This document shows, piece by piece, positions 6,839 to 8,066 of a DNA stretch of 64,000 bases. The translations under genes and the position numbers were made by a program. Within the stretch, counting starts at the first letter, position 1; every line of letters starts with the position of its first letter. The DNA is from the human T2T-CHM13v2.0 reference genome, Homo sapiens, in the NCBI RefSeq assembly GCF_009914755.1, contig NC_060926.1, one strand, 5' to 3'. The notes under the pieces are model-generated. The model was not told the DNA's origin, made no database searches, and worked only from the letters and a program-made list of their open reading frames with translations.

Positions 6839-6854
6839 AAGAATGTTTATTTTT

Positions 6855-8038
6855 ATTTTTGTTTTAATGTTATATTTAATCAACATTTGCTGTTAATGGC
6901 AGCATGGTTTTGTTTTTGTTTTTTGTTTGTTTGACACAGAGTCTCATTCCATCACCCAGGCTGTAGTGCAGTGGCGCAATCTCGGCTCACTGCAACCTCC
7001 ACCTCCTGGGTTCAAGCCATTCTCCTGCCTAAGCCTCCCGAGTAGCTAGGATTACAGGCGTGTGCCACCACACTGGCTAATTTTTGTATTTTGAGTACAG
7101 ATGGGGTTTCGCTACGTTAGCCAGGCTGGTCTCGAACTCCTGACCTCAGGTGATCCACCCACCTCAGCCTCCCAAAGTGCTGGGATTACAGGCATAAGCC
7201 ACCACGCCTGGCCAGGTTGGTTCTTTTCAGACACTTTCCTCCTAGGATCTACAGTTTGCTTCTATTATCCACTACGGAAGGCATGTGCTGATACTGTGGT
7301 TGGATCGTTAATTCTTGCCATCATGTGACCTGCTGCCACTAGAACTGCAGAATGTTTCTAACTAGTTCAACATATTGGGTATCAGGGAGTGGCTTCCTCT
7401 GATTCCCAGGTTGCAGGAATTTCTTAATTCTGGGGATGTTGCTGATTCCTGTTTAAAATGCCTTCAACAGAGGGAAGTCAGAAAGAACAGAAGCATTGAG
7501 TTCTTCTACTATTAGAACAGCTTCTAACAGTTGTATGTCTGCCCAACTGAATTTGTTGCCAACAAGAAGATCCTCTCCATGGTCTTTCAAAATCTTTTCA
7601 AAGATGGCCAAGTACTGGGTTTTAGCTTTCTTCACAACTGAGCAAGGTTCTCCTCTTTTTCCTCAGTGGGCCAGCGCCATCATCATCATCAGGTCCAGGG
7701 TGCCCTCAGCACACATGTTGATCCCGACTCTCTCCTTCAGGTCCTTTCCACAGACATTGTACTTAGCAGCAAGATAGCTGAGGATGGCTGTAGTCAGTGT
7801 CAGCATCATTCCATCAATTTCAACCAAAGGCACTTGGCCAAAATGCAGGCGTCTATCCTTCTGCAACTTTTCATATTATTATCTTGTTTCAATAAATTCT
7901 TCTTCAAACTCTATTCCAGCTGCAGCCAGCAGCCAGAGGACTGACTCCACCCTGCCCCTGACATGAAAGTAGTAGAGCTTGGGTTTGGCTGCCATGCCTC
8001 CTGGCTCAAGATTTTCTGTTCAGCTATCTGGAAGCTCC
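6855..8038 (-). pseudogene. Processed pseudogene of an alpha-class glutathione S-transferase (GSTA4-like); CDS remnant 7995-7339
   Basis: Intronless [49 protein letters not shown]; stops at 7876-7881 (TAA TAA), 7663-7665 and 7453-7455; ATTAAA at 6875-6880, A-tail remnant, 16-bp TSD aagaatgtttattttt at 6839-6854 and 8039-8054. Confidence 0.96.
6908..7213 (-). mobile_element. AluSx-type Alu within the pseudogene 3' UTR
   Basis: Reverse-complement full Alu with (GTTT)-type tail. Confidence 0.95.
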
Positions 8039-8066
8039 AAGAATGTTTATTTTTAAAAAGAAAGGA

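What the first reader, a model, noticed from the sequence alone, without database searches (positions are those of the whole stretch)
6839..8054. Retrocopy of a rodent-Gsta4-like GST whose parent may no longer be a functional human gene
Seen: a complete mRNA fossil with 5' UTR, 657-nt CDS remnant, 3' UTR, ATTAAA, tail and perfect 16-bp TSD. Recalled knowledge: its motifs ([73 protein letters not shown]) match mouse Gsta4 / rat GST8-8. They differ from human GSTA4 (MAARPKLHY, FQQVPMVEIDGMKL, ILRGHGQ, SLADVILLQT) and from GSTA1-type enzymes (MAEKPKLHYF, SRADIHL). Inference: the source was the true orthologue of rodent Gsta4, expressed in the ancestral germline and later lost or pseudogenised. 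The copy would preserve the transcript of a lost 4-hydroxynonenal-conjugating enzyme, and may bear on the reported human mGSTA4-cross-reactive activity (hGST5.8), which as I recall lacks an assigned gene.
Basis: partly seen in the sequence, partly recalled or inferred. Interest (0 to 1): 0.8.

Follow-up and report, generated by a model that had tools for sequence, protein, structure and literature searches.

The report
Fossil copy of lost GST gene
This is a dead, reverse-transcribed copy of a detoxification gene that mice still use but humans have lost; the loss was already published, but the copy also preserves how that gene's messenger RNA once started inside an ancient virus-derived repeat.

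Summary
Window 6856-8038 (- strand) is a full-length processed pseudogene flanked by a perfect 17-nt target-site duplication. It belongs to the mouse-Gsta4 type of alpha GST, not to human GSTA4 or GSTA1/2/3/5. Its intron-bearing parent survives as a dead locus on chr6, about 21 kb downstream of GSTA4, and that locus groups with predicted-intact monkey genes. No intact gene of this lineage exists in this assembly. Human GSTA4 and mouse Gsta4 are old paralogues: 11 genera in the tree carry both, and no muroid protein of the human type was found.

It is not new: Zhu et al. 2007, citing Morel 2002, already state that the human counterpart of mouse Gsta4 is a pseudogene, inactivated about 14-25 Mya. 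RefSeq lists the retrocopy, misnamed "GSTA5 pseudogene".

One point I found in no paper: the retrocopy's first 23 nt come from an LTR-like repeat. A copy of that repeat sits upstream of the chr6 parent with a GT donor at the junction. A second, older retrocopy on chr15 starts at the same LTR base. Nothing here supports a link to hGST5.8.

The parts
8039..8055 (.). 5' target-site duplication (17 nt, perfect)
   Evidence: the repeat finder family D2, 100% identical to 6839-6855, spacing 1200
8016..8038 (-). 23-nt leader derived from an LTR-like repeat (exon 1 of the source mRNA)
   Evidence: 459 genomic matches at <=3 mismatches against 0 for the reversed control. The homologous segment of an LTR copy upstream of the chr6 parent is followed directly by GTAAAG. 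The chr15 retrocopy starts at the same base.
7996..8015 (-). 5' UTR part derived from parent exon 2
   Evidence: Aligns to chr6 from the exon-2 acceptor onward
7339..7995 (-). CDS remnant (657 nt) of a mouse-Gsta4-type alpha GST. Stops at 7881-7879, 7878-7876, 7665-7663 and 7455-7453; deletion and frameshifts at codons 107-123.
   Evidence: Translation; frameshift-aware reading; PDB scores; tree
7214..7338 (-). 3' UTR, first part
   Evidence: Continuous with the last exon of the chr6 parent
6906..7213 (-). Alu that entered the retrocopy after its insertion
   Evidence: Absent from the parent, whose 3' UTR is contiguous across this point
6856..6905 (-). 3' UTR, second part, with ATTAAA (6880-6875) and a 4-5 nt A-run
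   Evidence: Aligns to the parent through its ATTAAA
6839..6855 (.). 3' target-site duplication

Best explanation
Window 6856-8038 (- strand) is an L1-type processed pseudogene of the mouse-Gsta4-type ('mT') alpha-class GST gene. The source mRNA started at the transcription start of an LTR-like repeat lying about 0.9 kb upstream of the gene's exon 2. It spliced from a GT donor 23 nt into that LTR onto exon 2, ran through the six coding exons, and ended at the gene's ATTAAA site. It was reverse-transcribed into what is now a DNAH7 intron, most likely on the anthropoid stem before New World and Old World monkeys split. It then decayed and later took in an Alu. The parent gene stayed next to GSTA4 on chr6, is predicted intact in monkeys, and died in the ape lineage. 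Human GSTA4 is a different, old paralogue ('hT'), and muroid rodents appear to have lost that one. Shown here: the anatomy, the parentage, the clade membership, the parent's lesions, and the LTR leader with its donor. Inferred: the germline activity of the LTR promoter, the date, and the muroid loss.
For: Anatomy: TSD; intronless match to six chr6 exons plus the whole 3' UTR. Overall 85.7% identity over 845 aligned nt. Lineage: mouse GSTA4-4 327 bits against human GSTA4 219. Best database hits are primate 'GSTA4-like' proteins at 74-76% identity (761 proteins at E<=1e-30, best 120 listed). Careful tree of 86 rows: mT eutherian clade 100/97 with 42 tips, including Mus, Rattus, the retrocopy and chr6 psi. 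The hT clade with HsGSTA4 is 100/100, and HsGSTA1/2/3/5 form a separate clade at 100/100. AU test rejects retrocopy+psi with hT (p 0.00027). Parent: chr6 psi groups with Macaca and Chlorocebus mT at 100/96 and with Cebus and Aotus at 100/95. Its lesions are +1 nt at codon 20, a 2-nt loss plus TAA at codons 39/40, TAA at codon 95, TAG at codon 126, -1 nt at codon 209, and a GC donor on exon 2. No intact mT gene appears among 44 matches in the whole assembly. Paralogy: 11 genera have both types among the tree rows. Both lineages have marsupial and platypus relatives (100/99 each). The chimeric models P0108 and P0110 imply hT lies upstream of mT on one strand, as in human. No muroid appears in the hT set when a Dipodomys hT protein is the query. 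LTR. Literature: Zhu 2007 passages.
Against: Date: the free tree search left the retrocopy unresolved among boreoeutherians. The anthropoid-sister tree is only 7.0 lnL better, and nesting with catarrhines is not rejected (p-AU 0.46). The leader matches the chr6 LTR segment at only 17 of 23 bases, fewer than the 85.7% seen elsewhere. The retrocopy and the parent share a C>T that makes TAA at codon 40, which could suggest the parent was already dead; monkey proteins keep Q there, so I read it as parallel. The monkey 'intact' genes are predictions, and the two Old World monkey models have an odd YESCRR stretch in exon 3. The muroid loss of hT rests on absence from a protein database, not on a genome search. 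The repeat is called an LTR from its layout only; no repeat library was available.
Confidence: 0.85

Rival explanations
1. The copy derives from human-type GSTA4 or from a GSTA1/2/3/5-type gene (as the RefSeq name 'GSTA5 pseudogene' implies) and only looks mouse-like through decay.
For: RefSeq names LOC100420572 a GSTA5 pseudogene (hub table).
Against: Human GSTA4 is the weakest alpha-class hit in PDB. tblastn bit sums favour the mT reference: 308 against 191 (hT) and 201 (A1 type). HsGSTA5 sits in a separate 100/100 clade. The AU test rejects the hT grouping. Exon-by-exon DNA matches go to the chr6 mT locus at 76-93% but to GSTA4 at 73%.
Confidence: 0.01
2. The 23-nt leader is not a spliced exon. 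It was added by reverse-transcriptase template switching onto an unrelated LTR transcript (a chimeric retrocopy).
For: The leader equals the repeat-family consensus at 22 of 23 bases but the chr6 copy at only 17 of 23.
Against: A family copy lies in sense orientation 0.5-0.95 kb upstream of parent exon 2, with GT exactly at the junction. The join is at the exon-2 acceptor. The independent chr15 retrocopy has the same start base and joins the same acceptor from a second point where the chr6 LTR also reads GT.
Confidence: 0.05
3. The parent was already a transcribed pseudogene when the copy was made.
For: The retrocopy and chr6 psi share a TAA at codon 40.
Against: Macaca, Chlorocebus, Cebus and Aotus proteins read Q at that codon. 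None of the parent's other five lesions is shared. Zhu 2007 date the inactivation to 14-25 Mya, while the nucleotide distance (K80 0.16; 0.22 in the 3' UTR) and the tree point to an older copy.
Confidence: 0.05
4. The retrocopy or its parent encodes the reported human enzyme hGST5.8.
For: Reviews still list hGST5.8 as a human 4-HNE-conjugating GST beside hGSTA4-4 (passages in PMC4693237 and PMC6875399). That it cross-reacts with anti-mouse-GSTA4 antibodies is recalled, not seen.
Against: The retrocopy has 4 in-frame stops plus frameshifts. The parent has 3 stops and 3 frameshifts. No other mT locus is intact.
Confidence: 0.02

Closest known systems
Mouse Gsta4 / mGSTA4-4 (PDB 1guk, 1b48) and rat Gsta4
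   Same: Same eutherian gene lineage (100/97). Mouse P0045 is 71% identical to the damaged reading, and the match covers the full length, residues 1-218 against 1-222.
   Different: The window copy is intronless and disabled, lies on another chromosome, and carries an LTR-derived leader. No activity can be assigned to it.
Human unitary pseudogene of mouse Gsta4 in the 6p12 GSTA cluster (Morel 2002, as cited by Zhu et al. 2007, PMC2134963)
   Same: It is the parent locus: C6:52,779,230-52,797,102 (-), six coding exons plus the 3' UTR matching the retrocopy.
   Different: It keeps its introns and its position beside GSTA4. It carries a different set of lesions and is closer to the monkey genes. 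Its HGNC name could not be fixed here. It is probably not GSTA7P, which a positional gene list places before GSTA2.
Human GSTA4 (hGSTA4-4, PDB 1gul)
   Same: Alpha-class GST that neighbours the parent locus. Reviews describe it as conjugating 4-hydroxynonenal.
   Different: It is a separate paralogue with its own marsupial and platypus relatives (100/99), and it gives the lowest alpha-class score to the retrocopy.
RefSeq LOC100420572, 'glutathione S-transferase alpha 5 pseudogene'
   Same: The same object; its annotated span 7378-7995 lies within the CDS remnant.
   Different: The name points to the wrong parent. The annotation covers neither the UTRs, the TSDs nor the LTR leader.
LTR-derived alternative promoters / first exons of host genes
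   Same: The transcript starts about 25-27 nt after a TATA-like box inside an LTR-like repeat and splices from a donor in the repeat to the gene's exon 2.
   Different: It is known here only from two fossil retrocopies and the DNA of a dead gene. Promoter activity, tissue and repeat-family name were not tested.

Membership tests
L1-mediated processed pseudogene | Intronless copy spanning all exon junctions of a multi-exon parent located elsewhere | tested here: met
   Six chr6 exons spread over 18 kb are contiguous in the window copy on chr2.
L1-mediated processed pseudogene | Target-site duplication flanking the insert | tested here: met
   17 of 17 nt identical at 6839-6855 and 8039-8055.
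L1-mediated processed pseudogene | Ends at the parent's polyadenylation site with an A-tail | tested here: inconclusive
   ATTAAA is conserved and the match ends about 20 nt after it, but only 4-5 A remain before the A-rich TSD.
Mouse-Gsta4-type (mT) alpha GST lineage | Falls inside the clade holding mouse and rat Gsta4, apart from human GSTA1-5 | tested here: met
   Clade support 100/97. The alternative grouping with the hT clade is rejected at p-AU 0.00027.
Mouse-Gsta4-type (mT) alpha GST lineage | High catalytic efficiency with 4-hydroxynonenal | not testable with these tools
   The gene is dead, and no ancestral protein was built or assayed.
Human GSTA4 (hT) lineage | Clusters with HsGSTA4 and its eutherian orthologues | tested here: not met
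GSTA5 / A1-type pseudogene (RefSeq name) | Closest to GSTA5 or the GSTA1/2/3/5 group | tested here: not met
   The A1-type clade is separate at 100/100. Bit sum is 201 against 308 for the mT reference.
Unitary pseudogene (chr6 parent) | Disabled gene in ancestral position with intact orthologues in other species and no intact copy in the genome | tested here: met
   Lesions. Sister to the monkey genes. No intact mT locus among 44 matches. The syntenic mapping is from Zhu 2007 and was not repeated here.
LTR-derived first exon | Leader matches a repeat family, with a sense copy upstream of exon 2 and GT at the junction | tested here: met
   A second donor and the same start base in the chr15 copy.
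LTR-derived first exon | Demonstrated promoter activity and named LTR family | not testable with these tools
   No expression data and no repeat library were available.

The most novel reading that the evidence does not exclude
The dead chr6 locus may still contribute protein. Its exon 6 is open, and its exon 7 is open up to codon 209. The acceptors of both exons, the exon 6 donor and ATTAAA are intact. Read-through from GSTA4, splicing GSTA4 exons 2-5 to these exons in frame, would give an alpha GST of about 218 residues with a mouse-type C-terminal third. Gene predictors emit the same exon combination in Lynx (P0108) and Rangifer (P0110). Such a protein could be the antigen reported as hGST5.8, which (recalled) is recognised by anti-mouse-GSTA4 antibodies and has no assigned gene.
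Probability: 0.03. Interest if true: 0.7.

Novelty: already known. Interest (0 to 1): 0.3.

Why it matters
The practical point is one of naming. 'GSTA4' in human and 'Gsta4' in mouse are different, old paralogues, each lost on the other side (the human loss is published; the muroid loss is inferred here from protein databases). Mouse Gsta4 knock-outs and human GSTA4 studies are routinely read across as if the two were one gene, so this deserves to be better known. The full T2T assembly holds no intact mouse-type gene, which leaves the still-cited enzyme hGST5.8 without a plausible orthologous gene. The retrocopy itself is an ordinary processed pseudogene. Its small added value is as a fossil: together with the chr15 copy, it records that the lost gene's mRNA began in an LTR.

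Tried and rejected
(1) First exon stitching from tblastn HSPs ran into introns and mishandled frameshifts. I replaced it with a frameshift-aware protein-to-DNA aligner.

(2) My first reading of the parent's exon-2 donor as GG was wrong. The exon ends three codons later and the donor is GC.

(3) An automatic synapomorphy count yielded only 5 usable sites (1 anthropoid, 4 catarrhine). I read the alignment directly instead.

(4) A search for the parent's exon 1 by substitution-only matching of the 23-nt leader found 0 hits at <=5 mismatches in C6:52,796,001-52,822,000, and only chance 7-9-mers by blastn-short. The genome-wide pattern search then showed the leader is a repeat.

(5) The free tree search placed the retrocopy in a boreoeutherian polytomy. 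A constrained search found a better tree, so I dropped the statement that the copy lies outside the anthropoid lineage.

(6) The HGNC name of the chr6 locus stays unresolved. My guess of GSTA7P was rejected on the gene order in PMC8448992.

PMC2564820 is not held.

(8) Searches for a printed account of the reciprocal loss or of an LTR promoter found none. Apart from Zhu 2007, nothing relevant turned up in the open-access library. Morel 2002, Singhal 1994 and Cheng 2001 were not readable here, and Table 1 of Zhu 2007 is not in the held text.

(9) Structure and complex prediction were not used, because nothing in the question depended on them.

Full report
**1. What is there.**
On the - strand the window holds a complete mRNA-shaped insert. 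A perfect 17-nt direct repeat brackets it at 6839-6855 and 8039-8055. Inside are a 43-nt 5' UTR and a 657-nt reading-frame remnant (7995-7339). The remnant has four in-frame stops (two adjacent TAA at codons 39-40, TGA, TAA) and a deleted, frameshifted patch at codons 107-123. The 3' UTR ends about 20 nt after an ATTAAA at 6880-6875 with only 4-5 A. An Alu at 6906-7213 splits the 3' UTR. By the hub's gene table the insert lies in a DNAH7 intron, on the same strand as that gene.

**2. Which GST.**
I read the frame with X at the stops and scored it against PDB. Mouse GSTA4-4 scores 327 and 325 bits (1guk, 1b48). A chicken alpha GST (1vf1) scores 259, and human A1/A2/A3 chains about 228-241. Human GSTA4 (1gul) scores 219, the lowest of the alpha-class rows listed. 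In the 5.8-billion-protein database the best hits are primate proteins named 'GSTA4-like': Otolemur 76%, Nycticebus 75%, Cebus 74%. Mouse is at 71% (761 proteins at E<=1e-30 among 985 candidates, best 120 listed).

**3. The parent.**
A DNA search of the window's own assembly gave 15 matches. Six are exon-sized pieces on C6, - strand, between 52,779,400 and 52,797,102, at 76-93% identity. A local blastn extended the last one through the whole 3' UTR to the poly(A) signal. It is contiguous across the point where the window copy has its Alu, so the Alu arrived after retroposition.

Exon-by-exon reading of the chr6 locus shows all acceptors intact, but the gene is dead:
- one extra base at codon 20;
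- a GC rather than GT donor on exon 2;
- a 2-nt loss plus TAA at codons 39/40;
- TAA at codon 95 and TAG at codon 126;
- a 1-nt loss at codon 209.

Exons 4 and 6 are open. With the same procedure all five annotated human genes assemble as open six-exon frames. GSTA4 lies at C6:52,818,038-52,833,812, about 21 kb upstream of the dead locus on the same strand, and GSTA3 at 52,736,330-52,745,356. A six-frame scan of the whole assembly with an intact macaque protein of this lineage (P0066) gave 44 matches. The only ones of this lineage are the chr2 copy (315 bits), the chr6 exons and a degraded chr15 copy. A weak, unassigned fragment on C10 also matched (E 6e-4). There is no intact gene.

**4. Two paralogues.**
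I searched with the human-type half of a chimeric model (1344 proteins, best 120 listed) and with a Dipodomys human-type protein (1197, best 120 listed). Both show that the human type ('hT') occurs across eutherians. That includes non-muroid rodents (Octodon, Cavia, Thomomys, Dipodomys, Spermophilus, Urocitellus) and rabbit. In one search no muroid protein is in the hT set; the first muroid is an Onychomys mouse-type protein at 59%.

Of the 230 proteins then held, 148 were mouse-type in both halves and 28 human-type in both. Among the mixed ones, P0108 (Lynx) and P0110 (Rangifer) join an hT N-terminus (90-95% to HsGSTA4) to an mT C-terminus (81-82% to mouse). This implies hT lies directly upstream of mT on one strand, as in human.

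**5. Tree.**
I chose 79 of the 230 proteins by hand for taxon spread and full length. I left out the chimeric models and the chr15 copy (too degraded). I added the five assembled human genes and the two pseudogene readings, making 86 rows and 222 columns.

Careful IQ-TREE supports:
- mT eutherian clade 100/97 (42 tips: Mus, Rattus, Peromyscus, the retrocopy, chr6 psi);
- mT plus marsupial and platypus members 100/99;
- hT eutherian clade with HsGSTA4 100/100 (19 tips);
- hT plus marsupial 'GST-like' and a platypus protein 100/99;
- HsGSTA1/2/3/5 with a bat A2 100/100;
- chr6 psi with Macaca and Chlorocebus 100/96, and with Cebus and Aotus 100/95.

Eleven genera have both types among the rows. 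Holding the retrocopy and psi with the hT clade costs 82.6 lnL (p-AU 0.00027).

**6. Age.**
Retrocopy against parent: 845 aligned nt, 85.7% identity, K80 0.162. By part, CDS is 0.146, the 3' UTR is 0.217 (n=169), and non-CpG JC is 0.145.

At sites where anthropoid mT proteins share a derived residue (60, 96, 118, 120, 126) the copy keeps the ancestral one, and the same holds at catarrhine sites 4 and 64. It shares T209 with anthropoids.

The free search left the copy unresolved. A tree holding it with the anthropoid genes is 7.0 lnL better, and there it is sister to the whole crown group. Nesting it with catarrhines is 3.0 lnL worse than the free tree but is not rejected (p 0.46).

My reading is an anthropoid-stem origin, older than the New World monkey split, which Zhu et al. 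put at about 40 Mya. This is not formally bracketed. The expected neutral divergence I compared it with is recalled, not computed here.

The shared TAA at codon 40 is best read as parallel, because the monkey proteins keep Q there.

**7. The leader.**
The copy's first 23 nt do not match upstream of parent exon 2 at <=5 substitutions. Genome-wide the 23-mer has 232+227 matches at <=3 mismatches, against 0+0 for the reversed control. I fetched eight copies. They show an LTR-like layout: a CATAAAA box about 27 nt upstream and AATAAA about 110-130 nt downstream. Two of the eight have GT right after the 23-mer.

Five of the eight copies match C6:52,798,052-52,797,600 in sense orientation at 68-74% identity, 0.5-0.95 kb upstream of exon 2. 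At the homologous place the chr6 copy has 17 of 23 identical bases, followed directly by GTAAAG, with AATAAAA about 25 nt upstream.

The chr15 retrocopy is 72.6% identical to the chr2 copy and 70.1% to psi, so it is older. It begins at the very same LTR base with unrelated DNA upstream. Its 120-nt leader ends where the chr6 LTR reads CCTTG|GTAATA, and it joins the same exon 2 acceptor.

Two independent fossils thus agree on an LTR transcription start and reveal two donors. Template switching is a much weaker account of this.

**8. What is known.**
Zhu et al. 2007 (PMC2134963; I saw the abstract, section 7 and the passages; Table 1 is not in the held text) write that GSTA4 is 'known to be' a pseudogene in human while the mouse orthologue is functional, citing Morel et al. 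2002. They place the inactivation about 14-25 Mya, between the orangutan and Old World monkey splits. This fits psi being sister to predicted-intact monkey genes.

RefSeq lists the retrocopy as LOC100420572, 'GSTA5 pseudogene', which names the wrong parent.

I found no paper describing the muroid loss of the human type, the retrocopies' parentage or the LTR leader (open-access library only).

hGST5.8 is still listed as a human 4-HNE enzyme in reviews (passages of PMC4693237 and PMC6875399). In PMC11201704, PMC10136111 and PMC4037989 it appears only in reference lists. Nothing I saw ties it to a gene.

**9. Verdict.**
The central biological point, that the human orthologue of mouse Gsta4 is lost, is already published. 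The additions here are:
- correct parentage, against the RefSeq name;
- an approximate age;
- evidence that mouse and human 'GSTA4' are reciprocally retained paralogues;
- an LTR-derived first exon recorded by two retrocopies.

The hGST5.8 link is unsupported.

Noticed in passing
G000:C15:25,350,652-25,351,829 (- strand; locus L030): A second, older processed pseudogene of the same mouse-type GST: 72.6% identical to the chr2 copy, heavily degraded, and interrupted by about 550 bp between its exon-2 and exon-3 parts. It starts at the same LTR base as the chr2 copy but has a 120-nt LTR leader that uses a second donor.
   Followed up: partly
G000:C6:52,797,600-52,798,052 (- strand; locus L018): An LTR-like repeat in sense orientation upstream of the dead GST locus. 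It has an AATAAAA box, a start-site equivalent near 52,797,987, and GT donors near 52,797,964 and 52,797,866. The repeat family was not named and promoter activity was not tested.
   Followed up: partly
Database proteins P0108 (Lynx), P0110 (Rangifer), P0099 (Lemmus): Gene models that fuse the N-terminal exons of one alpha GST (human-type GSTA4, or an A1-type in Lemmus) to the C-terminal exons of the mouse-type gene. They may be mis-joined neighbours or real read-through transcripts. Either way, they contaminate 'GSTA4' orthologue sets.
   Followed up: partly
PMC6643896 (passages): A cetacean GST study reports positive selection on the terminal human branch of 'GSTA4' (omega 999). If that alignment mixed the two paralogues, the signal could be an artefact. 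I did not see their alignment.
   Followed up: no
Database proteins P0066 (Macaca), P0080 (Chlorocebus), P0103 (Cercocebus): The Old World monkey models of the mouse-type gene read YESCRR, or a shortened stretch, where other species read YEKLQK in exon 3. This looks like a 1-nt shift smoothed over by the predictor, so their intactness needs checking at the DNA level.
   Followed up: no
G000:C6:52,526,717-52,718,443: A1-type exon fragments lie outside the five intact genes, in about six groups (near 52.53-52.54, 52.578, 52.605-52.617, 52.645-52.651, 52.688-52.698 and 52.713-52.718 Mb). Together with the mouse-type locus this makes seven, the number of GSTA pseudogenes I recall from Morel 2002.
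   Followed up: no
G000:C10:61,525,239-61,525,457 (- strand): A weak match (E 6e-4, 40% identity, one TGA) to residues 135-209 of the macaque mouse-type protein. It may be a very old GST relic or chance.
   Followed up: no
window 8056-8420: An Alu in the opposite orientation abuts the 5' TSD of the retrocopy. The order of the two insertions was not worked out.
   Followed up: no
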